From an uncultured Prevotella sp. (lineage in GTDB: Bacteria > Bacteroidota > Bacteroidia > Bacteroidales > Bacteroidaceae): DNA of 64,000 bases. The notes beneath the pieces are model-generated. The model searched no databases. It saw only the letters and a list, made by a program, of their open reading frames with translations, and was not told the DNA's origin. The position numbers were made by a program, and so were the translations under genes. Location: NCBI GenBank assembly GCA_944319815.1, contig CALUEX010000050.1:13372-77371 (forward strand), read 5' to 3'. This document shows, in pieces, positions 5,647-27,059 of this stretch. Within the stretch, counting starts at the first letter, position 1. Each line of letters opens with the position of its first letter.

Positions 5647-6597
5647 ATGGGTATTTCGATTTTCCTTGCATCACTATTCACCTTTGTTGAATTAAACTGC
5701 GAGAACTTATTTGATTACCGACACGACAGCCTGAAAATGGACATCGAATTCACGCCGGACGGCGACAGACGATGGACAAGATATAAATATTGGGACAAAC
5801 TGGACAACGTAGCAAAAGCCATCATTTCGTGCGGAATTGACGGGAATGACTGGAATATGCCCGACATGATAGCCTTGTGCGAAGTTGAGAATGACAGCGT
5901 GATGCACGACCTGACCAAACGCTCACTCTTGAGGAACGCCAACTACGACTACATCATGACCGACTCTCCTGACGAACGAGGCATAGATGTGGCCTTAGTA
6001 TATTCACAAGGAAGTTTTGCTCCCATAAACCACTATCCAATAAGAATTAATCCGATAAAAGGGATGCGGCCGACTCGAGATATATTATATGTTTCCGGAC
6101 AAATCATAACTGGCGATACACTGCACGTTTTCGTAGTTCATGCTCCAAGTCGTTATGGCGGAGAAAAACGCACAAGACCGCACCGAAAACTTGTGGCCGA
6201 CAGATTATGTGAGGCCATTGATTCATTATACAACCTGCACAAAAATCCCAATATACTAATAGCCGGCGATTTTAACGACTATGCCGATGGACTAATCGTG
6301 AAACAAGTATGTATGCGGGAACTAACAAATGTCTCTGCAAACGCCACGGGGGACAATGGAGCAAAAGGCACATACAAATATAAAGGTGCATGGAATAGCG
6401 TAGACCATGTGATAATAAGCAGAAGCCTGTTGGACAAAATGTTAGGATGTAAAGTTAACGATGCGGCGTTCTTACTTGAAGATGATGAAAAATATGGTGG
6501 TGTACAACCATTGAGGACGTATCGGGCATGGAAGTACCGTAATGGGTTCAGCGACCATCTTCCACTTGTAGTACAATTCCAACTAAGACGTTATTGA
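5647..6597 (+). CDS. Endonuclease/exonuclease/phosphatase family protein
   Basis: LNCENLFD, LCEVEN, AGDFND, VDHVIIS, FSDHLP catalytic motifs. Confidence 0.88.
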   Translation: MGISIFLASLFTFVELNCENLFDYRHDSLKMDIEFTPDGDRRWTRYKYWDKLDNVAKAIISCGIDGNDWNMPDMIALCEVENDSVMHDLTKRSLLRNANYDYIMTDSPDERGIDVALVYSQGSFAPINHYPIRINPIKGMRPTRDILYVSGQIITGDTLHVFVVHAPSRYGGEKRTRPHRKLVADRLCEAIDSLYNLHKNPNILIAGDFNDYADGLIVKQVCMRELTNVSANATGDNGAKGTYKYKGAWNSVDHVIISRSLLDKMLGCKVNDAAFLLEDDEKYGGVQPLRTYRAWKYRNGFSDHLPLVVQFQLRRY

Positions 6598-17842: not shown

Positions 17843-18053
17843 AAAGGGCTGGCCGGTCTACTTTAAGCTGTTGGTATGGCTTTAACCCCAATCGGTCTAA
17901 TGATTGATTGGGGTTAAATTAATTATGCAACACCGTATCTTGGATTTTTCAGACAGAAAGGGCACTTACTGAAATACGGACTGTGGCGGCTTGTATATCT
18001 GCCAAGAATTATATACCTTTGTACTAAATTTCATTTCATTTTTATTCGATACA

Positions 18054-19820
18054 ATGAAAAAACGTACACTGGGAATTATCACGTATGCAGTCGTAGTCGC
18101 AACAACAATTATCTGCGCAACGTCGTGTACGTCTACTGTAACCAAACACAACATAGCCACCGCCGACAGCATCGTCAATGTTAACCCCAAAGCTGCCCTT
18201 GCTTTTATTGACAGCGTAACCGGGAGCGGCGACCTCAGTCGTGCCTCTAAAATGAAATTCGCGCTACTGAAAGCCAAGGCACGCAACAAGCTATACCTAC
18301 CAGCAGACACCGCCATGCTGGAAACTCTCGCCGAATATTACGACAACCACGGCACGGCCAACGACCGTATGCTCACTCAATACATCATCGGGTGCTCGTA
18401 CATCGACAGAAACGATGCACCGCGGGCATTGCAAAGTTTCCAAGACGCTATTGAAATGGCAGACACGACGGATACCGAATGCGACTATGGGACATTAAGC
18501 CGCATCTATTCACAGATGAGCAATATCCTAAACGACGAAATGTCTTTTACCTATGCATTAGAAGCCGGTAAAAAGTCCATAAGATATGCATTGGCGGCCA
18601 AAGACACGTTCAACGCCATATCAGGATACAGTTATCTGACGGCAAGTTATTATTTCACCCAACCTGACTCCGTACTGTCTGTTAACTTAAAGGCAGCTGA
18701 GATGTATAAAGAGCATGGATACATACAAGACGCAGCAGCCACATACGGCATTCCTATATTCCTCTTGATTGAAAAAGGAAAATTAAAGGAAGCCAAACCA
18801 TACATGGACTTATATGAAACATATTCAGGGATTTATGACAGCAAGACCAAAACGACCAAAAAAGGCCATGAAATATATTACTATGTAAAAGGTATGTATT
18901 ATGTGCTAACGCACAATCTTGATTCTGCCGAGTATTTTGCAAGAAAAGAATTACGTACAACTTCCGACTTCGACAACCGCCAAGGTGCGGCAAAGTGTCT
19001 TTACATGATTTATAAGAAGAAAAGACAAACGGACTCAATAATTAAATATGCCGAAATGTGGAATGCCGCAACAGACTCTGCGTATGCAAATATGTCAACT
19101 ACACACTTGCAGCAGATGAGAGCTAAATACGACTATAGCCAAAGCGAACGAATAGCTGAACGGAATGCCGCTGAAGCTACACGTATGAAACTGTTGGCCG
19201 CCATATTCGTATTGGCTTTGGTGCTTTCACTGTTTTTCATTCTTTTCATTATGCAAAAGCGCAAGAAAGACGCCGCAATAGCAAAACAGCTTAATGCGAA
19301 AAATGCCTTATATCTTTTACTCTTGGACAAGAAAGAGAAAGAATTGCGCGAAGCCCAAAACGCCAAGCAGGTCAATGAAATATTAATAAAAGAAAAAGTG
19401 GCAGAAGTCAAGAACCTGCAGGATAAGTTGTCAGAATTGCACGGACTATCTATAGAAACTGATATAGACCGTGACAAAAACATCCATGAGGCGGCAATAA
19501 CATACCACCTGCATGAACTCGCAAGCTCTGGCTGCAAAGCTAAACAAAGCGACATTGACGAACTGCAAAAACTTTTTGAAACCAATATGCAACATTTCAT
19601 AGCCGCCTTAAACAAATACAACAGGCTTAATAAAACGGAAACTACAATATGTTGCTTGGTAAAGCTGAACTTCATACCGTCAGAAATAGGGTGCTTGCTA
19701 AACATATCGCCACAAAACCTTACTAACATCCGTAAAAGGTTAAATAAAAAAATATTCGGTGTTGACGGTGGCGCAAAAGATTTAGACTATAAAGTCAGAA
19801 AATTACTTCCAAACGACTAA
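18054..19820 (+). CDS. Membrane-anchored TPR-like sensor with C-terminal HTH (one-component regulator)
   Basis: Signal/lipobox-like IICATSC; helical TPR-like periplasmic region; TM LLAAIFVLALVLSLFFILFIM; coiled coil; LNKTETTICCLVKLNFIPSEIGCLLNISPQNLTNIRKRL LuxR-like HTH; start ATG 18054. Confidence 0.78.
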   Translation: MKKRTLGIITYAVVVATTIICATSCTSTVTKHNIATADSIVNVNPKAALAFIDSVTGSGDLSRASKMKFALLKAKARNKLYLPADTAMLETLAEYYDNHGTANDRMLTQYIIGCSYIDRNDAPRALQSFQDAIEMADTTDTECDYGTLSRIYSQMSNILNDEMSFTYALEAGKKSIRYALAAKDTFNAISGYSYLTASYYFTQPDSVLSVNLKAAEMYKEHGYIQDAAATYGIPIFLLIEKGKLKEAKPYMDLYETYSGIYDSKTKTTKKGHEIYYYVKGMYYVLTHNLDSAEYFARKELRTTSDFDNRQGAAKCLYMIYKKKRQTDSIIKYAEMWNAATDSAYANMSTTHLQQMRAKYDYSQSERIAERNAAEATRMKLLAAIFVLALVLSLFFILFIMQKRKKDAAIAKQLNAKNALYLLLLDKKEKELREAQNAKQVNEILIKEKVAEVKNLQDKLSELHGLSIETDIDRDKNIHEAAITYHLHELASSGCKAKQSDIDELQKLFETNMQHFIAALNKYNRLNKTETTICCLVKLNFIPSEIGCLLNISPQNLTNIRKRLNKKIFGVDGGAKDLDYKVRKLLPND

Positions 19821-19993
19821 GGATAAACATAATCACGCCATTATGTGTAAAAAGTGTAAAATGCTTGTAAGTGCGTGATAATAACGACATTATGCAGTTT
19901 TTGTGTAAAATGTGTATTTGTTAAAGTGCCAAGAAATGTTTTAAGCCACAACTTTATCACATATCTTTGCAACAAATCAAAACACAAATTACC

Positions 19994-20386
19994 ATGAAAA
20001 AAGCGTTATTATCAGTTTCATTTTTAATATTGTCATTCACGGCAAGCAATGCTTGTCAAGTCAATGCGACATGGCAACTGGAGTTACCAAACTATATAAA
20101 TTTGGAATTGCGTATTCTTGCCATACCTCCTGAGGGTACTATAAATGAACCGCGACGTGCCCCTATACGACGCCCGACGATAGGATATGACGGCAACACC
20201 TTATATTTATATGGGCAATTCGGTGACTTAACGCTTCTGTTGCTTAACAACGGAGCGGAAGAATATACAACAGTTGTACCTGCCGGCGCAAACGAAGTGG
20301 CACTACCAAATTACACACCAGGCATATACGAATTGCAAATGAACGACGGCAGGTATATCTATACTTGCGAAATAGAAATAGAATAA
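19994..20386 (+). CDS. Secreted DUF3244-like immunoglobulin-fold protein
   Basis: Signal peptide MKKALLSVSFLILSFTASNA; RAPIRRP, then LP...GIYELQM.DGRYIYTCEIEIE tail typical of DUF3244 proteins; follows a TPR regulator. Confidence 0.6.
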   Translation: MKKALLSVSFLILSFTASNACQVNATWQLELPNYINLELRILAIPPEGTINEPRRAPIRRPTIGYDGNTLYLYGQFGDLTLLLLNNGAEEYTTVVPAGANEVALPNYTPGIYELQMNDGRYIYTCEIEIE

Positions 20387-20545
20387 AAGAATTTTATTAC
20401 CTTAATAATATTAAGAAGAAAAAGCACCATGACAATACTGCAACGGCAAAGGGACGGGAATAGCTGACGACCTAACCCGCTGCATATTGTGGAAGCGAAA
20501 AAACTAATAACTTCCGTGCAAAAAGCTCTCCAGAGCAAAGACAGC

Positions 20546-20553
20546 TATATTTG
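20546..20553 (+). promoter_or_regulatory. -7 promoter element for the precursor gene
   Basis: TATATTTG 47 nt upstream of the precursor ATG; no clear -33 TTTG. Confidence 0.45.
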
Positions 20554-20600
20554 CCGAGGTCGAGTTTTAGTCAATGTAGAACTACAAAAACTGTAGAATT

Positions 20601-20804
20601 ATGAAAACAAAAGAAAAATTTGACATTGAGACCATCGTTTCGAATGATGTGCTTGACATAAACCTCATGAGCCAAGTGTTAGGTGGCGTGTCACCTGGTA
20701 ACTTGACTTGTCTTGAACTCTGCATCAGAAATTGCAATGGTTTTAAGTGTTCACTTTGTTCAACATTATGTATTGATAATTGTAGTGGAGTTATCTACGT
20801 TTAA
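20601..20804 (+). CDS. RiPP precursor peptide: double-glycine leader plus 38-aa 7-Cys core
   Basis: Leader ends LDINLMSQVLGG (hydrophobic at -12, -7, -4); core VSPGNLTCLELCIRNCNGFKCSLCSTLCIDNCSGVIYV; adjacent to rSAM and a C39 exporter. Confidence 0.88.
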   Translation: MKTKEKFDIETIVSNDVLDINLMSQVLGGVSPGNLTCLELCIRNCNGFKCSLCSTLCIDNCSGVIYV

Positions 20805-20824
20805 TTCTAAGATGTAACAACCAG

Positions 20825-20880
20825 CCACTAAAACTACTTTACAATTTGTTAAACAATAAAGATTTAAGTAGTTTTAGTGG
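20825..20880 (+). promoter_or_regulatory. Intercistronic stem-loop after the precursor gene
   Basis: Perfect 15-bp IR CCACTAAAACTACTT / AAGTAGTTTTAGTGG with no poly-U tail. Confidence 0.6.
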
Positions 20881-20906
20881 TTAACGTCATTAAAAAATTA
20901 TAAATT

Positions 20907-22241
20907 ATGAATACACTACGAAAATCACGCTATTGTTTCTTAATCAAAAGGGACAATATTTGCTTGGCATACACATCATCAACTAACAGTTTCTATAAAA
21001 TAAACGATTATGTTGCAGACTTAATCGAAAATACGAATATGGCGGTTTGCGACACGGATAGCTGTGAAAACAGTGAAGAAATAAAATCGCTCCACAACCT
21101 TAAACTACTCACCACTGAAGCTGAAGACAACGACGTGGTAGACCTACTGCGGATGAAATTCTTAATGCATTCATATTCAAAAGAGGATATAGCTGTCACG
21201 ATTTGCCCAACATTGTCGTGCAACCTTAGATGCCCATATTGCTTTGAAAAGAACAAGAAACAAGGCTTTATGGATGAGAAAACCTGCGATGCCGTAATTG
21301 ATTTCATCAACAGCCACACTTATGCCAAAACCCTATCACTGAATTGGTATGGCGGAGAGCCATTGCTCTGCACAAACACGATAAGATATTTCCTGACAAA
21401 GCTATCTGACATAAAAGATATTAAACTTGTTTCACATGGAATGGTAACAAACGCCACGCTATTGAAGGACGAAAACCTCGAATTGTTCAAGGAATATCCA
21501 TTAAACTCAATACAAGTCACATTTGACGGCATTAAATCTACCCACGACACAAAAAGAATATATGCTGACGGACGAGGCTCGTATGATGAGATAGTCAAAA
21601 ACCTTAAAAACTTCGTTGAATATTATCCTGAAACATTTGTTTCCATAAGAGTAAACATTGATAAAAACAATGCAAACCAGTTCATGACAATATATGAGAC
21701 CATCAAAGGATTGTTTCCCGACAAGAAAAACATCATAGTATATCCTGGAATAATAAAAGATTGTGGAATAAGGAAGTCTAATTCACCAATATTGATGAAT
21801 GAAGATATTGTAAGGATAAATGAGCAATTTACAAAAAGAGGCTATCCGTTAAAATTTCCGCACACGGTAGAATCAGGATGCTGTGCAAATTGCTTGTCAA
21901 GCTACATCATAGGTCCACAAGGTGAAATATACAAATGCTGGGAAGACGTAGGCTGCGACACATGCGTTATCGGCAACATCTATGACAAGAAATATACCAA
22001 TATGCCGTTGCTTGCTAAATATATGCTATATGGTTCACACATTCTCGAGAATGAATGCAAAGAATGTCCTCTTATACCCATTTGCTCAAACGACTGCGCT
22101 CATAATCGAATTAACAATAAGTTCGCAAATACGGAATACGAATTATGTAGTATTTATAAAAACAACGATTTCTCAGCATTAAATACACTACTTTACAATT
22201 TTTATTGTAAATTTGTAACAAACAAAGCAAACCAACAATGA
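20907..22241 (+). CDS. Radical SAM/SPASM peptide maturase
   Basis: CNLRCPYC (CX3CX2C), WYGGEPLL, SPASM GC...GEIYKCW...CKECPLIPICSNDC-X16-C; ~70-aa N-terminal extension that may be an RRE. Confidence 0.92.
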   Translation: MNTLRKSRYCFLIKRDNICLAYTSSTNSFYKINDYVADLIENTNMAVCDTDSCENSEEIKSLHNLKLLTTEAEDNDVVDLLRMKFLMHSYSKEDIAVTICPTLSCNLRCPYCFEKNKKQGFMDEKTCDAVIDFINSHTYAKTLSLNWYGGEPLLCTNTIRYFLTKLSDIKDIKLVSHGMVTNATLLKDENLELFKEYPLNSIQVTFDGIKSTHDTKRIYADGRGSYDEIVKNLKNFVEYYPETFVSIRVNIDKNNANQFMTIYETIKGLFPDKKNIIVYPGIIKDCGIRKSNSPILMNEDIVRINEQFTKRGYPLKFPHTVESGCCANCLSSYIIGPQGEIYKCWEDVGCDTCVIGNIYDKKYTNMPLLAKYMLYGSHILENECKECPLIPICSNDCAHNRINNKFANTEYELCSIYKNNDFSALNTLLYNFYCKFVTNKANQQ

Positions 22242-24541
22242 AAAGCACCACTTTGAAAGACACTATGCTATTAGTCTTATGCACTTTTGCTTTGTTACCG
22301 ACCGCCAATGTCTACGCACAGCAACAAGGCAAGGCAAAGGTTTCAGGAATCATATCTGATACCAAAGGAAAGACCTTGTCTGGCGTATCGATACTCGTCA
22401 AGACTGGGAGCGAGACTTTCGGTAACGTATCAAACGAGGATGGTGTGTATGAAGTCACGTTTACGAAAGTCGATACAGTTAGCGTGACGTTCAGCCATGT
22501 TGGTTATAACAGCTTCAGCTTTGTAGCTGGCGGAACGAAAGACATAAAAAGAAACGTGACGCTCGCAAGAAACGGGATAATGCTAAGCGGTGTAACCGTA
22601 GAAGCGCCAAGCGTGATAATAGGCGACCATGTAACATACATACCGACCAAACAACAAGTGAATGGCGCAAATTCGGGCATAGGTCTGCTGTTTAACCTTA
22701 TGATACCGCAAATAGACGTGAACCCTGTAACTGGTGAAATAAAGACCTCTGACAACTCTTCTTTCGCGCTAAGCATTGACGGTAGGCAAGCCTCCGTGCA
22801 AGAAATTAACCGATTAAGACCCAAGGATGTGGAGCGTGTGGAACTACACGAGAATCCACAGGGAATGTTTGCAACCGTTGACAAAGTGGTAAACTATGTT
22901 ACAAAGAAGTATGAAAGTGGAGGCTATGTTGACGTTAGAACTAATACACACTTATTGTATCCAAACGGTGAATATACAGCACAGGCGAGCTTTGACCGAA
23001 AAAATGTTAACTTACTTGCCATTATTGGCACAGGGTTCGATAACGACAACTTATCCGGCTCGCGAACAACAGAATTGTTCAACTTGAATCCTGCATTTAC
23101 AAAATATTCATATACAAACGCCTCCGATGTAAAAAAACGTTTTGACGTAGGCCTACTGCAACTTAGCGTGAGGGGCAAGCGTTCGATGTTCATGGCTCAG
23201 GGACTAATAAGATGGAACGAAACACCCAAGAACCTAACAGGAATGCAAGTGGAATATTCAAACAATGTACACCCTATGACAAATGCGTTAAACAATGTTT
23301 ATTCAAAGAATCTCTCGCCATCTATAAACCTGTATCACCAGATACAAATAAACAACAAGCAACAAATAGTATGGAACGCTAAATACGATTATGCAAGAAA
23401 TAGTTACAGGCGCAACTATATAGAGACCACCACACCCATCACCAGTGATGTGACGGAAAACTATAATACATTAAATGCAACAATAAACTATAACTTGGCA
23501 TTCAACAACAACCAACTAAGCCTATTGCTGTGGAATGTCTACAATGCAAGCAATGCCGACTATAGAGGCACTGTGCAAAGCAACCAGGACTTATCTACGT
23601 ATGACCTATTGTTTTACCCGACATACACCCACAAATTCGGCAAGGCTCTAACTGTAAGTCTACAACTCGGTTTTGACCTAAACACGTACAAAGTGAATGA
23701 AGAAAAGCGAGTAACGAAGATATGGCCAAGGCCGAGAATTAACGCGAACATGATGTTGGGCAAGTCAAGCTACACTACGTTCATGTGGGGCTTGGGTACA
23801 GTCACACCACAGCTCTCGATGCTGAATAGTGCCGAACAGTACGTTTCCGAATATATGATAATGCGTGGCAACCCCAACCTTGGTACTGGAAAGGTGATGA
23901 ACGGCTATATGTCGTATAACAAGGGCTGGAAAAACGTCAACCTGTCAGCATATCTTTATTATAATGGAGTCCTTGACATCGGCAACAACTACTACCTGAC
24001 AGAAAATAATAAGATAATCCAAACGTTCATGACTAACGGCAATTACCATCACTACCAATTGGGCATCAACTGTATGTTCAACCTTCTCAAGAGGAATTTG
24101 CATTTGAAATTGACCGCCGCGTTCGACAACTTTAACCAAACTGGAATATACCATGAAAACCTACACGAACCAGTATTCACCGCCGACCTGTACTATAATA
24201 TCGGTAAATTTAGCCTTGCCGCATACTATAAAACACCGAGAAAGAGGCTTCACGATACGCCGATATACGACAAAGAAAAATGCAATTATGGACTTACGGC
24301 ATCGTGGGGACATCGCGGATGGTTCGTGCAAGTTGGTTGCCAACGTATCTTCGACAACCACGGCTACGGCAGAAGCTACTACGACTATGGATGCTACAAG
24401 CTCAACCAAGCTATCTTCAACAACAACACAGGACACATTGCGTACATCAACCTGTCTTACAGTTTCGATTTCGGACGTAAGGTTGAGCGTCAAAACATTA
24501 ATCTAAACCAGGGCAATGGGTCTGGAATACTGCATCCATAA
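22238..24541 (+). CDS. Outer-membrane beta-barrel protein (TonB-dependent-receptor-like) with carboxypeptidase-regulatory-like N-domain
   Basis: Signal peptide; VSGIISDTKGKTLSGVSI..FSHVGY domain; plug-like IDGRQAS..INRLRPKDVERVE; amphipathic strands ending YINLSYSFDFG; ATGA overlap with the rSAM stop. Confidence 0.8.
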   Translation: MKSTTLKDTMLLVLCTFALLPTANVYAQQQGKAKVSGIISDTKGKTLSGVSILVKTGSETFGNVSNEDGVYEVTFTKVDTVSVTFSHVGYNSFSFVAGGTKDIKRNVTLARNGIMLSGVTVEAPSVIIGDHVTYIPTKQQVNGANSGIGLLFNLMIPQIDVNPVTGEIKTSDNSSFALSIDGRQASVQEINRLRPKDVERVELHENPQGMFATVDKVVNYVTKKYESGGYVDVRTNTHLLYPNGEYTAQASFDRKNVNLLAIIGTGFDNDNLSGSRTTELFNLNPAFTKYSYTNASDVKKRFDVGLLQLSVRGKRSMFMAQGLIRWNETPKNLTGMQVEYSNNVHPMTNALNNVYSKNLSPSINLYHQIQINNKQQIVWNAKYDYARNSYRRNYIETTTPITSDVTENYNTLNATINYNLAFNNNQLSLLLWNVYNASNADYRGTVQSNQDLSTYDLLFYPTYTHKFGKALTVSLQLGFDLNTYKVNEEKRVTKIWPRPRINANMMLGKSSYTTFMWGLGTVTPQLSMLNSAEQYVSEYMIMRGNPNLGTGKVMNGYMSYNKGWKNVNLSAYLYYNGVLDIGNNYYLTENNKIIQTFMTNGNYHHYQLGINCMFNLLKRNLHLKLTAAFDNFNQTGIYHENLHEPVFTADLYYNIGKFSLAAYYKTPRKRLHDTPIYDKEKCNYGLTASWGHRGWFVQVGCQRIFDNHGYGRSYYDYGCYKLNQAIFNNNTGHIAYINLSYSFDFGRKVERQNINLNQGNGSGILHP

Positions 24542-24572: not shown

Positions 24573-26771
24573 ATGCCGAAGTTCAAAACCTATATCCAGC
24601 ATGACTCCATGGAATGCGGCATAACGTGCCTACGCATGGTGTGCAGCTATTACGGCGTTGATTATAGCTCTGAATACTTGTCACGGCTGTGCTTCGCCAC
24701 TAACGAGGGCGTGTCGCTATTAGGGATGAGCGATGCGGCGGAACGGCTCGGGCTGCACACCGTATGCGGACGCTTGGGATTGGAACAGCTGCGCACCGTG
24801 CCCCTACCCTGCATCCTGCACTGGAACCAAAACCACTTCGTCGTACTATACCGCATAAGCAAAAACGGCAAGAAGTATTACATAGCCGACACGGGCAAAG
24901 GACTCGTGACACGTTCGGAAAAAGAGATGAAGGAATGCTGGATAAGCACACGCTCAAATGGAGAAGACAGGGGCGTGGCGATGCTGATAGAAACTACTCC
25001 CGCGTTTTACGACCGTATGAAACATTCAGGCAACGAAGGCGAGAGCCGCTCGTTCCGCTTCCTGTTCGGCTACCTAAAGAAATACAAGACGTACTTCGGG
25101 CAAATTGCCGTTGGACTGGCTTTAGGCTGCCTTCTGCAACTCGTATTGCCGTTCCTGACGCAAGCAATAGTTGACGTGGGCATAAAGAACAAGGACATTG
25201 GCTTTGTATGGCTCGTGTTGCTGGGGCAACTTATGCTGACGGTTAGCCGCACGGCGCTCGACTTCATACGCCGTTGGCTGTTGCTGCACATCAGCATGAG
25301 GGTGAACATATCACTGATAAGCGACTTCTTCATTAAACTTCTTAGGCTGCCGATGTCGTTTTTCGACACGAAGCTGATGGGCGACCTGATGCAAAGGATA
25401 AACGACCACACGAGGGTAAACAACTTCTTGACGGGGCAGACGCTCGGAGTTGCGTTCTCCATGCTTAGCCTCGTAGTCTTCGGCGCGGTGCTACTGATGT
25501 ACGACGCCGCGATATTTGCGATTTTCGTGGTAGGCAGTGCCGTTTATGCGTTGTGGATAACGATATTCCTCAAGCGGCGCAAGGTGCTTGATTATGAACT
25601 GTTCGAGCAACAGGCCATAAACAACAACAAAACTTACGAGTTTATCACCTCGATGCAGGAGATAAAGCTACAGGACTGTCGCCACCGTCGCCGCTGGGAA
25701 TGGGAGGACACGCAAGCCGACCTGTTCAACGTGCAGATGAAAAGCCTGAAACTGCAACAGGCCCAAGAGGCCGGGAGCATATTCATTAACGAGCTGAAGA
25801 ACATCGTAATCACCGTGGTGTCGGCCACGGCCGTAATCCACGGTGACTTGACTCTCGGAATGATGCTGGCCGTGCAATACATCATAGGCCAGCTTAATGC
25901 TCCGGTAGAACAGTTGATGAGTTTCTTCTACTCGCTGCAGGACGTAAAGATAAGCCTTGAACGCATAAACGAGATACACAAGGCGAAAGACGAGAACGCC
26001 GGCGGACACGACATGATGCCGCAGCCACAACCGCAAACTATAAGATTAGAGAATGTCAGCTTCATGTATGACCCGCATTCGCCGTGGAAAACTATTGACG
26101 GCGTGAACATAGAGATACCGAAAGGCAAGGTGACGGCCATAGTTGGAGCGTCGGGCAGCGGGAAAACAACATTGATAAAGCTGATGCTGGGATATTATCC
26201 CGTAAGCGAAGGGCGCATAACCATTGGCGGAACTGACATTGCAAGGCTGAACCTTGACGAATGGCGCAGACGGTGCGGAGTGGTGATGCAGGACGGCATC
26301 ATATTCTCGGAGTCAATCGCGAGGAACATTGCCGTTGACGACAACGACATTGACAAGGAGCGTATGGCAAAAGCCGCAGAAACGGCTTGCATCAAAGACT
26401 ACGTGATGAGCTTGCCGCTGAAGTTCAACACGAAAATCGGCCATGACGGGAACGGCCTGAGCCAAGGGCAGAAGCAGAGAATACTGATAGCCAGGGCGGT
26501 GTACAAGGCTCCAGACTTCATCTTCCTTGACGAGGCCACCAACTCGCTTGATGCTAACAACGAGAGAAAGATTGTGGATAATCTTGACAGCTTCTATAAA
26601 GGTCGCACGGTAATAATAGTTGCGCACAGGCTTAGCACTGTAAGGAATGCCGACCAGATAATAGTAATAGACAAAGGGCGCGTGGCGGAGACGGGCACGC
26701 ATGACAGCCTTACCTTACGCAAAGGGTTGTATTACGAATTGGTGAGAAACCAACTTGAACTTGGCGATTGA
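24573..26771 (+). CDS. Peptidase-containing ABC transporter (C39 PCAT)
   Basis: QHDSMECG catalytic Cys, LHWNQNHFVV His; TM domain; GASGSGKTT, LSQGQKQR, LDEATNSLD. Confidence 0.95.
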   Translation: MPKFKTYIQHDSMECGITCLRMVCSYYGVDYSSEYLSRLCFATNEGVSLLGMSDAAERLGLHTVCGRLGLEQLRTVPLPCILHWNQNHFVVLYRISKNGKKYYIADTGKGLVTRSEKEMKECWISTRSNGEDRGVAMLIETTPAFYDRMKHSGNEGESRSFRFLFGYLKKYKTYFGQIAVGLALGCLLQLVLPFLTQAIVDVGIKNKDIGFVWLVLLGQLMLTVSRTALDFIRRWLLLHISMRVNISLISDFFIKLLRLPMSFFDTKLMGDLMQRINDHTRVNNFLTGQTLGVAFSMLSLVVFGAVLLMYDAAIFAIFVVGSAVYALWITIFLKRRKVLDYELFEQQAINNNKTYEFITSMQEIKLQDCRHRRRWEWEDTQADLFNVQMKSLKLQQAQEAGSIFINELKNIVITVVSATAVIHGDLTLGMMLAVQYIIGQLNAPVEQLMSFFYSLQDVKISLERINEIHKAKDENAGGHDMMPQPQPQTIRLENVSFMYDPHSPWKTIDGVNIEIPKGKVTAIVGASGSGKTTLIKLMLGYYPVSEGRITIGGTDIARLNLDEWRRRCGVVMQDGIIFSESIARNIAVDDNDIDKERMAKAAETACIKDYVMSLPLKFNTKIGHDGNGLSQGQKQRILIARAVYKAPDFIFLDEATNSLDANNERKIVDNLDSFYKGRTVIIVAHRLSTVRNADQIIVIDKGRVAETGTHDSLTLRKGLYYELVRNQLELGD

Positions 26772-26873: not shown

Positions 26874-27059
26874 ATGGACGGGAAAGACAATGTTGAATTG
26901 AGAAGTGAGAAAATGCGACATATTATAGGCGAAATCCCTCCAAAGTTGATTAGATTGGGAACAGCCATTACCGTGGCCGTTTGCATCTTGATAGGGGCGT
27001 GCCTTTGGTTTGTCAAAATAAACGGCGAACGCTTGTTTTCTCTAATTTTTAAGATATAA
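26874..27059 (+). CDS. 61-aa protein matching only the N-terminus (cytoplasmic helix plus TM) of HlyD-type adaptors; mini-adaptor or remnant
   Basis: VELRSEKMRHIIGEIPPKLIRLG then TM TAITVAVCILIGACLWFV, resembling the ELRSEE...PP..IRWG start of Bacteroidales HlyD proteins; stops soon after the TM. Confidence 0.6.
   Translation: MDGKDNVELRSEKMRHIIGEIPPKLIRLGTAITVAVCILIGACLWFVKINGERLFSLIFKI

What the first reader, a model, noticed from the sequence alone, without database searches (positions are those of the whole stretch)
20688..20801. Precursor core has an internally duplicated Cx3Cx3C motif
The core has Cys at positions 8, 12, 16, 21, 24, 28 and 32. Two modules align: TCLELCIRNCNG and LCSTLCIDNCSG, both C-x3-C-I-x-N-C-x-G, joined by FKCS. 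The i/i+4 Cys spacing puts thiols on one helical face and places Asn/Asp/Glu near each Cys, so several thioether cross-links (Cys to Asx/Glu beta or gamma carbon, or to alpha carbons) or a metal-binding product are plausible. The odd Cys count means not all can form disulfides.
Basis: partly seen in the sequence, partly recalled or inferred. Interest (0 to 1): 0.62.

Follow-up and report, generated by a model that had tools for sequence, protein, structure and literature searches.

The report
Cysteine-ladder peptide precursor beside radical-SAM enzyme
A Prevotella gene encodes a small secreted peptide whose cysteine-rich end is built from back-to-back four-residue units (Cys-x-x-Asn/Leu/Phe). 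The neighbouring radical-SAM enzyme most likely staples these units into small sulfur-bridged rings, making this an uncharacterised variant of a known kind of modified peptide.

Summary
Window 20601-20804(+) encodes a 67-aa precursor. It has a 29-aa double-glycine leader and a 38-aa core with Cys at 8, 12, 16, 21, 24, 28 and 32. Two 12-residue modules share 7/12 residues (12 of 20,000 shuffles do as well).

The modules share only 19/36 bases, so this is not a recent DNA duplication.

The gene lies in a conserved operon: regulator, small secreted protein, precursor, hairpin, rSAM/SPASM maturase, outer-membrane barrel, C39 ABC exporter.

The Cx3Cx3C spacing is not the conserved unit. It recurs only in a few near relatives (L106, L111/L116, partly L110) and in 3 of 66 further family cores. 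The commonest family spacing is Cx4C.

What is conserved is the residue three places after each Cys: Asn most often, then Tyr, Phe, Lys, Asp and Leu. The signal is 0.48-0.63 bits at +3, against at most 0.17 at any other offset. The window core reads as tandem tetrads: CLEL-CIRN-CNGF-K-CSL-CSTL-CIDN-CSGV.

The maturase resembles CteB. Its best curated match is TIGR04463, far below cut-off. CrpC, a member of that family, installs ranthionine thioethers in C-x-x-Z motifs.

Most likely product: a peptide with several Cys(i)-to-(i+3) thioether rings. The chemistry is untested. I rate it a new variant of a known kind, of moderate interest.

The parts
17991..19820 (+). 609-aa putative regulator (helical-repeat region, one TM segment, C-terminal HTH-like end)
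   Evidence: ORF. Only weak hits: BT3442 family 53.6 bits against a cut-off of 940, and sub-threshold TPR_2/MarR traces. Genes of 580-582 aa sit at the same place in L106-L109 and L111, with a faint TPR_2 trace in L111. The regulatory role is inferred.
19967..20386 (+). 139-aa secreted protein of unknown function, conserved upstream partner of the precursor
   Evidence: ORF. Counterparts of 126 aa with the same C-terminal GIYEL..DG.YIY.CEIEIE motif lie upstream of the precursors in L111, L116 and L117. No Pfam or NCBIfam hit.
20601..20687 (+). Leader peptide (29 aa) ending in Gly-Gly
   Evidence: The consensus MxxKKFxIETIVxxDxLxxDLMSxVxGG has M1, G28 and G29 invariant in 18 relatives. A leader profile finds 76 proteins among 1.84 billion.
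20688..20801 (+). Core peptide (38 aa, 7 Cys). It reads as tandem C-x-x-Z tetrads: CLEL CIRN CNGF K CSL CSTL CIDN CSGV
   Evidence: Cys+3 residues are L, N, F, C, L, N, V, so 5 of 6 non-Cys are in the favoured set N/D/F/Y/L/H, against a 12/31 background.
20706..20741 (+). Module 1: TCLELCIRNCNG
20754..20789 (+). Module 2: LCSTLCIDNCSG
   Evidence: 7/12 aa identical to module 1, 19/36 nt identical.
20823..20882 (+). 17-bp stem hairpin between the precursor and the maturase gene (probable transcript attenuator or stabiliser)
   Evidence: -27.3 kcal/mol, z = -7.1, and 0 of 200 shuffles fold as well. The function is inferred.
20907..22241 (+). rSAM/SPASM peptide maturase, 444 aa, with an N-terminal RRE-like domain
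   Evidence: Pfam Radical_SAM and Fer4_12. C105-x3-C109-x2-C112 and seven SPASM Cys (325, 344, 384, 387, 393, 397, 414) are invariant in 20 homologues. CteB is the best PDB match by sequence (7e-20) and by fold (E 6e-19, TM 0.63-0.71, full length). Best NCBIfam match is TIGR04463 at 180.7 bits, cut-off 525.
22238..24541 (+). 767-aa outer-membrane barrel with a CarboxypepD_reg-like N-terminal domain; its start overlaps the rSAM stop
   Evidence: The same gene follows the rSAM in L106-L118, where Pfam OMP_b-brl_3 is recorded.
24573..26771 (+). C39-peptidase ABC exporter (PCAT), 732 aa
   Evidence: Peptidase_C39, ABC_membrane and ABC_tran. Q9, C15 and H88 of the C39 motif can be read in the sequence.
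26874..27059 (+). 61-aa membrane protein, conserved last gene of the operon
   Evidence: 62-aa counterparts follow the PCAT in L106-L109. No family hit.

Best explanation
The ORF is the precursor of a ribosomally made, radical-SAM-modified peptide.

Proposed pathway (all steps inferred, none shown):
- The N-terminal RRE-like domain of the adjacent rSAM/SPASM enzyme binds the conserved leader.
- The enzyme handles the core one C-x-x-Z tetrad at a time. The Cys thiol binds the open iron of the first auxiliary cluster. The 5'-deoxyadenosyl radical abstracts a hydrogen from the residue three positions downstream (Asn15, Asn31, Leu11, Leu27, Phe19). A thioether forms.
- The result would be up to five to seven small, unnested 4-residue rings lying head to tail.
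- The preferred acceptors are Asn, Asp, Phe, Tyr, His and Leu. These side chains can hold a stabilised beta- or gamma-carbon radical, which favours a non-alpha (ranthionine-type) link.
- The C39 ABC exporter then cuts after Gly-Gly and exports the 38-mer. The co-translated outer-membrane barrel is the likely route across, or receptor at, the outer membrane.

On this reading the Cx3Cx3C ladder and the two duplicated modules are tetrads packed without spacer residues.
For: Gene context is conserved across relatives.

The enzyme has the rSAM motif and a 7-Cys SPASM domain. It folds like CteB over its full length.

Its top curated family, in all 20 homologues tested, is TIGR04463. CrpC, a member of that family, was shown to install ranthionine links inside CAGM, CAVD and CPLV motifs. 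Its substrates carry C-X-X-Q/D repeats (PMC13692751).

Cys+3 is by far the most constrained core position:
- 51 cores beside rSAM homologues: KL 0.48 bits, z 37.6, others at most 0.17.
- 66 further cores found by leader profile: KL 0.63, z 81, Asn at 194 of 478 sites against a 12% background.
- The rule holds for Cys-Cys gaps of 1, 3, 4, 5 and 6 (70-89% favoured residues). It is weaker (56%) for the last Cys of a core and fails for the rare gaps of 7-8.
- 59 of 69 peptides are individually enriched, p = 1e-9.

Precedents for short unnested thioether rings are NxxcB (Asn beta-carbon) and streptosactin (4-residue rings), both in PMC9389541.
Against: - No chemistry was measured.
- The maturase scores far below the cut-off of every curated family: 181 vs 525 for TIGR04463 and 136 vs 340 for PapB.
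- Only 1 of 6 CteB catalytic-site proximity residues is identical: F113/Y148/V180/T205/W345/E346 against F/F/T/S/H/Q (with PMC10288494).
- Lys is also common at +3 and is not explained.
- C21 has Cys and C32 has Val at +3.
- The +3 preference could reflect a turn or fold rather than an acceptor site.
- A sister clade of the same enzyme family, with CxCxC cores, lacks the rule.
Confidence: 0.55

Rival explanations
1. The enzyme makes thioethers of another type or topology. One option is sactionine (S to alpha-carbon) links, either in 4-residue unnested rings as in streptosactin or in a nested hairpin. Another is links to residues other than i+3.
For: The same enzyme class makes alpha-thioethers. 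Non-hairpin sactisynthases GggB and QmpB resemble ranthisynthases in sequence (PMC10288494). The acceptor set at +3 is chemically mixed, including Leu, Lys and Val, which an alpha-carbon link would tolerate.
Against: An alpha-carbon link should not select side chains, yet +3 is strongly biased towards Asn, Asp and aromatics. Cys are spread along the whole core rather than grouped in one half, so a nested hairpin is unlikely. CrpC, the characterised TIGR04463-family member, gave ranthionine-type MS behaviour.
Confidence: 0.2
2. The Cys are not cross-linked to carbon. The product would be a disulfide-rich or metal- or cluster-binding peptide, and the rSAM would perform a different change such as epimerisation, C-C or C-O cross-links, or Cys oxidation as in anSME.
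For: Seven Cys in 25 residues with i/i+4 spacing could chelate metals. anSME is the second-best structural match. The CrpA locus is linked to growth on pyrite and possible metal binding. Other family members of the SPASM group make non-thioether products (one search lists DynA, cyclophane formers).
Against: Cys is the only residue type kept in all cores, and it is kept together with a fixed +3 partner. The 7-Cys SPASM domain with an open AuxI site is typical of enzymes that bind a substrate thiol. The best family and structure matches are thioether formers.
Confidence: 0.15
3. The small ORF is not expressed, or is a decaying remnant, and the repeat is chance.
For: The precursor has no hit in Pfam or NCBIfam.
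Against: The identical protein is seen on 15 contigs. The leader is conserved in 76 representative proteins. The ORF sits at the same position in every related operon. The repeat is significant against shuffles and is kept through synonymous codon changes.
Confidence: 0.03

Closest known systems
CrpA/CrpC of Methanococcus voltae (TIGR04463 family; PMC13692751, 2026)
   Same: RRE + rSAM + 7-Cys SPASM enzyme acting on a Cys-rich, internally repeated substrate with C-x-x-Z motifs. TIGR04463 is the top curated match of the window enzyme and of all 20 homologues tested. Ranthionine links were localised inside the 4-residue motifs CAGM and CPLV.
   Different: The score is 181 bits against a cut-off of 525, so the window enzyme is not a member. 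CrpA is a 29-kDa protein with 17-residue repeats, not a 38-residue exported peptide. The CrpA locus has no GG leader, PCAT or outer-membrane barrel. It is archaeal rather than from Bacteroidota. Its favoured +3 residues are Q/D rather than N, L and F.
PapA/PapB (freyrasin) ranthipeptide of Paenibacillus polymyxa
   Same: Tandem short Cys-acceptor motifs, each closed into a small unnested thioether ring by one rSAM/SPASM enzyme (PMC9413430 abstract; the count of six C-X3-D motifs is from my own knowledge). The PapB model hits at 1.3e-39.
   Different: The score of 136 bits is below the cut-off of 340. Spacing is i+4 to Asp, against i+3 to mainly Asn/Leu/Phe here. The leader and export machinery differ.
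CteB/CteA (thermocellin, SCIFF) of Clostridium thermocellum
   Same: Best solved-structure match over the full length, including the N-terminal RRE-like domain and the SPASM domain.
   Different: 18-20% identity. One Cys-to-Thr gamma link rather than many repeats. Only 1 of 6 proximity residues is identical. The SCIFF model scores 89 bits against a cut-off of 425.
CefA/CefB 'Cys-every-fifth' RiPP system (NCBIfam NF038108/NF038107) and the CXXX-repeat system (TIGR04115)
   Same: Curated, biochemically uncharacterised systems defined by periodic Cys in the precursor. CefB hits at 3e-49. CefA weakly matches 2 of 18 family precursors. The family's commonest spacing is Cx4C.
   Different: CefB scores 168 bits against 600 and TIGR04115 scores 65 against 350. 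The window precursor matches neither precursor model. The window's spacing is every fourth residue, not every fifth.
Uncharacterised Bacteroidales rSAM + PCAT + OMP clusters (PMC10352776, 2023; Parabacteroides distasonis cluster in PMC9389541, 2022)
   Same: Same gene architecture: precursor with GG leader, rSAM, TonB-receptor-like barrel, peptidase ABC transporter, TPR gene.
   Different: Those papers give no product or motif rule. The P. distasonis enzyme (L014) falls in a different clade whose CxCxC cores lack the Cys+3 rule.
NxxcB (Streptococcus) and streptosactin GggB
   Same: Short-range thioether rings spanning four residues. Asn is the beta-carbon acceptor in NxxcB.
   Different: In NxxC the Asn lies upstream of the Cys, whereas here it lies downstream. 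Streptosactin links are to alpha-carbons. Neither enzyme family appears among the top hits.

Membership tests
rSAM/SPASM RiPP maturases (CteB-like thioether formers) | CxxxCxxC radical-SAM cluster motif | tested here: met
   C105, C109 and C112 are invariant in 20 homologues. Pfam Radical_SAM scores 66.5 bits.
rSAM/SPASM RiPP maturases (CteB-like thioether formers) | SPASM domain with seven Cys (Cx9-15Gx4C ... Cx2Cx5Cx3C ... C) | tested here: met
   C325, G339, C344, C384, C387, C393, C397 and C414 are invariant.
rSAM/SPASM RiPP maturases (CteB-like thioether formers) | N-terminal RiPP recognition element | tested here: inconclusive
   The AF2 model (pLDDT 88.9) has strands 3-32 and helices 34-89. 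Foldseek aligns 457-467 columns to CteB, which includes its N-terminal domain. There is no Pfam PqqD hit.
rSAM/SPASM RiPP maturases (CteB-like thioether formers) | Catalytic-site proximity residues like ranthisynthases (CteB F112, F152, T186, S210, H363, Q364) | tested here: inconclusive
   The window has F113, Y148, V180, T205, W345, E346: 1 identical and about 3 similar. Reference profiles for PapB, CrpC and AlbA were not available.
Ranthipeptides / sactipeptides | Thioether between Cys sulfur and a non-alpha or alpha carbon in the product | not testable with these tools
   Needs MS/MS, desulfurisation labelling or NMR.
Sactipeptides, type 1 | Cys donors in the N-terminal half and acceptors in the C-terminal half (nested hairpin) | tested here: not met
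   Cys are spread over core positions 8-32 in two repeated modules.
TIGR04463 (CrpC family) | Score at or above the curated cut-off of 525 bits | tested here: not met
   180.7 bits. The best E-value among 20 homologues is 6.7e-71.
TIGR04463 (CrpC family) | Substrate with repeated C-x-x-Z motifs | tested here: met
   Motif definition from PMC13692751.
PapB family (NF047865) | Score at or above 340 bits; C-X3-D motifs in the substrate | tested here: not met
   136.4 bits. The core contains no C-X3-D.
CefA/CefB Cys-every-fifth system | CefB at or above 600 bits; precursor matches NF038108; Cys every fifth residue | tested here: not met
   168 bits. The window precursor has no hit at E <= 10. Its gaps are 3, 3, 4, 2, 3, 3.
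CXXX-repeat peptide system (TIGR04115) | Maturase at or above 350 bits | tested here: not met
   65.1 bits, although the window core does contain CXXX repeats.
GG-Bacteroidales rSAM system (TIGR04148) | Maturase at or above 300 bits | tested here: not met
   58.9 bits.
Double-glycine leader peptides exported by C39 ABC transporters | Leader ending in GG, plus an adjacent transporter with a Peptidase_C39 domain | tested here: met
   G28 and G29 are invariant. Peptidase_C39 scores 100 bits in the 732-aa transporter. Cleavage itself is not shown.

The most novel reading that the evidence does not exclude
The maturase closes every tetrad of the core into an i-to-i+3 thioether ring. That would give five to seven contiguous, spacer-free rings, a rigid 'thioether ladder'. 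Acceptors would include Asn beta-carbons and also unactivated Leu and benzylic Phe carbons. This ring density and acceptor range has not been described for any characterised ranthipeptide or sactipeptide. It would also define a large Bacteroidota-wide C-x-x-N RiPP class, with export or uptake through a dedicated outer-membrane barrel.
Probability: 0.3. Interest if true: 0.7.

Novelty: new variant of a known kind. Interest (0 to 1): 0.5.

Why it matters
Bacteroidales dominate many gut communities, yet no rSAM-modified peptide from them has been characterised. Reviews list this gene architecture as uncharacterised (PMC9389541, PMC10352776).

The Cys+3 rule found here turns a vague 'Cys-rich core' into a specific, cheap-to-test prediction of which atoms are linked. 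It applies to the window peptide and to well over 100 related precursors.

It also ties the Bacteroidota family to the only characterised TIGR04463-type enzyme, CrpC. If the prediction holds, the hypervariable cores on a constant leader would be a natural library of multi-ring thioether peptides. The enzyme would be a candidate tool for stapling short C-x-x-Z motifs.

Tried and rejected
- Word-based homologue search with the precursor found only itself.
- Pfam and NCBIfam gave no hit for the precursor, even at E <= 10.
- The AF2 model of the precursor was too uncertain (pLDDT 55.6) to judge the helical-face idea.
- Catalytic-site proximity profiling could only be compared with CteB. The paper's supplementary profiles are not held.
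- Literature searches for CefB, Clo7bot, OhkG/FlmE, TIGR04463, 'Cys-every-fifth' and CxxN found no characterisation. CrpC turned up by another search.
- Searches for Prevotella or Bacteroidota ranthipeptides found nothing specific.
- Recent tandem DNA duplication was rejected: 19/36 nt identity, with different codons at shared residues.
- Asn positioned relative to the downstream Cys (an 'N-x-C' or NxxC-like reading) was rejected. The -2 and -1 offsets carry far less information than +3, and the rule holds, though more weakly, for the last Cys of a core.
- Membership of the CXXX-repeat, CefB, PapB, SCIFF and GG-Bacteroidales families was rejected on curated cut-offs.

Full report
**1. What is there**

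Window 20601-20804(+) is a 67-codon ORF: MKTKEKFDIETIVSNDVLDINLMSQVLGG|VSPGNLTCLELCIRNCNGFKCSLCSTLCIDNCSGVIYV. The finding's coordinates, 20688-20801, are the 38 codons after the Gly-Gly.

The two modules are TCLELCIRNCNG and LCSTLCIDNCSG.
- They share 7 of 12 residues at an offset of 16.
- Only 12 of 20,000 composition-preserving shuffles of the core give any 12-mer self-match that good.
- With the Cys held fixed, 35 of 20,000 shuffles match the four non-Cys identities.
- Four Cx3C gaps arise in 27 of 20,000 shuffles.

At DNA level the modules share only 19 of 36 bases. Five of the seven shared residues use different codons. The repeat is old, or convergent, and is maintained at protein level.

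**2. Surroundings**

The ORF lies in a co-oriented operon:
- A 609-aa putative regulator (17991-19820).
- A 139-aa secreted protein (19967-20386).
- The precursor.
- A 17-bp-stem hairpin at 20823-20882, with -27.3 kcal/mol and z = -7.1.
- A 444-aa rSAM/SPASM enzyme (20907-22241).
- A 767-aa outer-membrane barrel whose start overlaps the rSAM stop (22238-24541).
- A C39-peptidase ABC exporter (24573-26771).
- A 61-aa membrane protein (26874-27059).

The same order is seen next to rSAM homologues of 56-64% identity, in metagenome contigs L106-L109, L111-L118.

The genome is a 2.78-Mb Prevotella-like assembly with one copy of the precursor and one of the enzyme. Earlier notes of this scan call it Prevotella.

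The locus looks accessory:
- Only 10 of 121 species of the genus have any homologue at E <= 1e-40, and only one at 46% identity.
- The locus has 37-41% G+C, against 45-59% in the flanks.

**3. The enzyme**

It has the C105-x3-C109-x2-C112 cluster motif. It also has the seven SPASM cysteines (325, 344, 384, 387, 393, 397, 414). All are invariant in 20 homologues.

An AF2 model (pLDDT 88.9) matches CteB best over its full length (E 6e-19, TM 0.63-0.71). Next come anSME, TigE and SuiB. By sequence, too, CteB is the best solved relative (7e-20).

It is below the curated cut-off of every NCBIfam model:

| Model | Score (bits) | Cut-off (bits) |
|---|---|---|
| TIGR04463 | 180.7 | 525 |
| Clo7bot maturase | 169.8 | 600 |
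| CefB 'Cys-every-fifth' | 168 | 600 |
| PapB | 136.4 | 340 |
| SCIFF maturase | 89 | 425 |
| CXXX-repeat maturase | 65.1 | 350 |
| GG-Bacteroidales maturase | 58.9 | 300 |

All 20 homologues tested match TIGR04463, the Clo7bot maturase and CefB, and these three give the best E-values of any family across the set.

I mapped the six CteB catalytic-site proximity residues (PMC10288494) through the CteB alignment. The window has F113, Y148, V180, T205, W345 and E346, against F, F, T, S, H and Q in CteB. One is identical and about three are similar. The reference profiles of other enzymes were not available, so this test is inconclusive.

**4. Do homologues conserve the motif?**

The precursor itself has no family hit, and a word-based search found only itself. 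I therefore read the small ORFs upstream of rSAM homologues in 79 genome loci, 24 metagenome loci and 13 looked-up contigs.

The leader is conserved, with consensus MxxKKFxIETIVxxDxLxxDLMSxVxGG. The cores are hypervariable.

The nearest relatives do carry Cx3C runs:
- L106 (enzyme 64% identical): CTIACYVDCLGNC...CGNYCIQDCGDNC, which is again two duplicated blocks.
- L111/L116 (64/60%): CSPLCIQFCGLDC.
- L110 (68%): mixed Cx3/Cx4 spacing. Its CFKNCNN and CSDNCNN motifs are clearly homologous to the window's CIRNCNG and CIDNCSG.

Equally close relatives do not:
- L114 and L080 (62-63%) have irregular or Cx5C spacing.
- L081/L117 (53-56%) carry eight CPTLQS repeats.
- L004 (46%) carries Cx4C repeats such as CDYNM.

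A profile of 18 precursors searched against 1.84 billion representative proteins found 76 family members. Among the 66 cores not already in hand, only 3 contain Cx3Cx3C, and the commonest gap is Cx4C at 172 of 424.

**5. What is conserved instead**

I tabulated residues at offsets -5 to +5 from every Cys. One position stands out: Cys+3.

| Data set | KL at +3 (bits) | z | Largest KL at another offset |
|---|---|---|---|
| 51 cores beside rSAM homologues | 0.48 | 37.6 | 0.17 |
| 13 cores of the window's near clade | 0.87 | 20.9 | 0.44 |
| 66 further cores from the leader profile | 0.63 | 81 | 0.16 |

- In the 66 further cores, Asn occupies 194 of 478 sites, against a 12% background. Tyr, Phe, Lys, Asp and Leu follow.
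- The rule is anchored on the upstream Cys. N/D/F/Y/L/H fill 70-89% of +3 sites whether the next Cys is 1, 3, 4, 5 or 6 residues away. They fill 56% after the last Cys of a core, against a background of about 33%. For the rare gaps of 7-8 the figure is only 33-42%.
- It is not an artefact of within-peptide repeats. In 59 of 69 representative peptides, Asn at +3 exceeds that peptide's own background (p = 1.4e-9). For about half of the peptides, +3 is the richest offset.

In the window the +3 residues are L, N, F, C, L, N and V. The core therefore reads CLEL-CIRN-CNGF-K-CSL-CSTL-CIDN-CSGV. The Cx3C ladder is simply C-x-x-Z tetrads packed without the one- or two-residue spacers that most relatives have.

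A tree of 50 maturases places the window with L110 (support 97/93), inside a Prevotella clade (100/99). Its sister is a Muribaculaceae/Porphyromonadaceae group whose cores read NNNNDNN, NHNHNNNFY and the like at +3. A separate 12-row clade with CxCxC or CTCGSANSN cores lacks the rule.

**6. Mechanism**

The closest experimentally studied system is CrpC of Methanococcus voltae.
- It belongs to TIGR04463.
- Its substrates carry repeated C-X-X-Q/D motifs.
- It was shown by MS, alkylation and deuterium desulfurisation to install ranthionine-type thioethers localised to the four residues CAGM and CPLV, and to CAVD. The Cys always precedes the acceptor.

NxxcB (Asn beta-carbon) and streptosactin (4-residue rings) are further precedents for short unnested rings. 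The Nif11-type precursors beside distant homologues in Firmicutes also read C-x-x-D/N/E, for example L033 ACFVDACAGNACAAE.

I therefore propose the following, all of it inferred:
- The enzyme binds the leader.
- It ligates each Cys thiol to the open AuxI iron.
- It abstracts a hydrogen from the +3 residue and closes a 4-residue thioether ring, tetrad after tetrad.
- The PCAT then cleaves after GG and exports the 38-mer.

The acceptor set (Asn, Asp, Phe, Tyr, His, Leu) consists of side chains that can stabilise a beta- or gamma-carbon radical. That favours non-alpha links. This point is chemical inference, not a result.

Confidence in the i-to-i+3 thioether model is about 0.55. Confidence that this is an rSAM-modified, exported Cys-rich RiPP is about 0.85.

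**7. What does not fit**

- Lys is frequent at +3.
- C21 has Cys and C32 has Val at +3.
- The enzyme is remote from every curated family.
- The proximity residues differ from those of CteB.
- The +3 bias could be structural, for example a turn.
- The 'one helical face' idea is unsupported. The AF2 model of the precursor has pLDDT 55.6, with only residues 37-43 helical.
- Metal binding cannot be excluded.

**8. Novelty**

The gene architecture has been noted as uncharacterised in Bacteroidales (PMC10352776) and in P. distasonis (PMC9389541). Periodic-Cys precursors are curated, as CefA and the CXXX-repeat system, but have not been studied biochemically as far as I could find. I found no paper describing the Bacteroidota C-x-x-N rule or any product of this family.

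I rate it a new variant of a known kind, namely rSAM/SPASM thioether RiPPs. Interest is moderate at 0.5. The feature is real and gives a sharp, testable prediction for a large gut-bacterial peptide family. The general category and the likely chemistry have precedents.

Noticed in passing
window 20823-20882: A strong 17-bp-stem hairpin lies between the precursor stop and the rSAM start (-27.3 kcal/mol, z = -7.1). It is not followed by a T-run. A similar inverted repeat follows the L106 precursor. It may set the precursor-to-enzyme transcript ratio.
   Followed up: partly
window 19967-20386; L111:4696-5076; L116:139-519; L117:1540-1920: A small secreted protein (126-139 aa) with a conserved C-terminal GIYEL..DG.YIY.CEIEIE motif always sits just upstream of the precursor. 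It has no Pfam or NCBIfam hit and its role is unknown (immunity, chaperone or signal partner).
   Followed up: partly
window 26874-27059; L106:12920-13108: A 61-62-aa single-pass membrane ORF is conserved directly after the C39 ABC exporter. No full-length HlyD-type adaptor is present in the operon.
   Followed up: no
L111:5311-6474 and L112:2265-3428: A DDE_Tnp_1 transposase is inserted on the opposite strand between the small secreted-protein gene and the precursor in a related operon.
   Followed up: no
L106:8338-10622 versus L107:8338-10635: The outer-membrane barrel gene is split into 704 + 57 aa in one sample but is an intact 765 aa in three others. This is a frameshift variant or an assembly error.
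   Followed up: no
L012, L013, L017, L030 (precursors upstream of position 6001 / 1925): A sister clade of the maturase has cores with CTCGSANSN-type repeats or CC motifs and a conserved C-terminal [LI]QFG tail. These cores do not follow the Cys+3 rule, which suggests a different modification.
   Followed up: partly
L033:5438-5752; L044:5-349 and 803-1141; L075:4851-5925: Distant rSAM homologues (29-33% identical) in Lachnospiraceae, Acidobacteriota and Victivallales sit next to Nif11-type precursors whose short cores also read C-x-x-D/N/E (for example ACFVDACAGNACAAE). The tetrad rule may extend beyond Bacteroidota.
   Followed up: partly
P0141 and P0124: Other family members also show internal duplication of multi-tetrad blocks, for example P0141 with CGDKCGTDCGTY and CGDKCDSDCSTY. 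Module duplication is a recurrent way these cores grow.
   Followed up: partly
window 19000-24000: The RiPP locus has 37-41% G+C against 45-59% in the flanking genes, and it is present in few species of the genus. It is probably a horizontally moving accessory island.
   Followed up: partly
P0148: A 2155-aa protein matched the precursor profile in seven stretches. It is possibly a large Cys-rich repeat protein, or a low-complexity false hit. I did not examine it.
   Followed up: no
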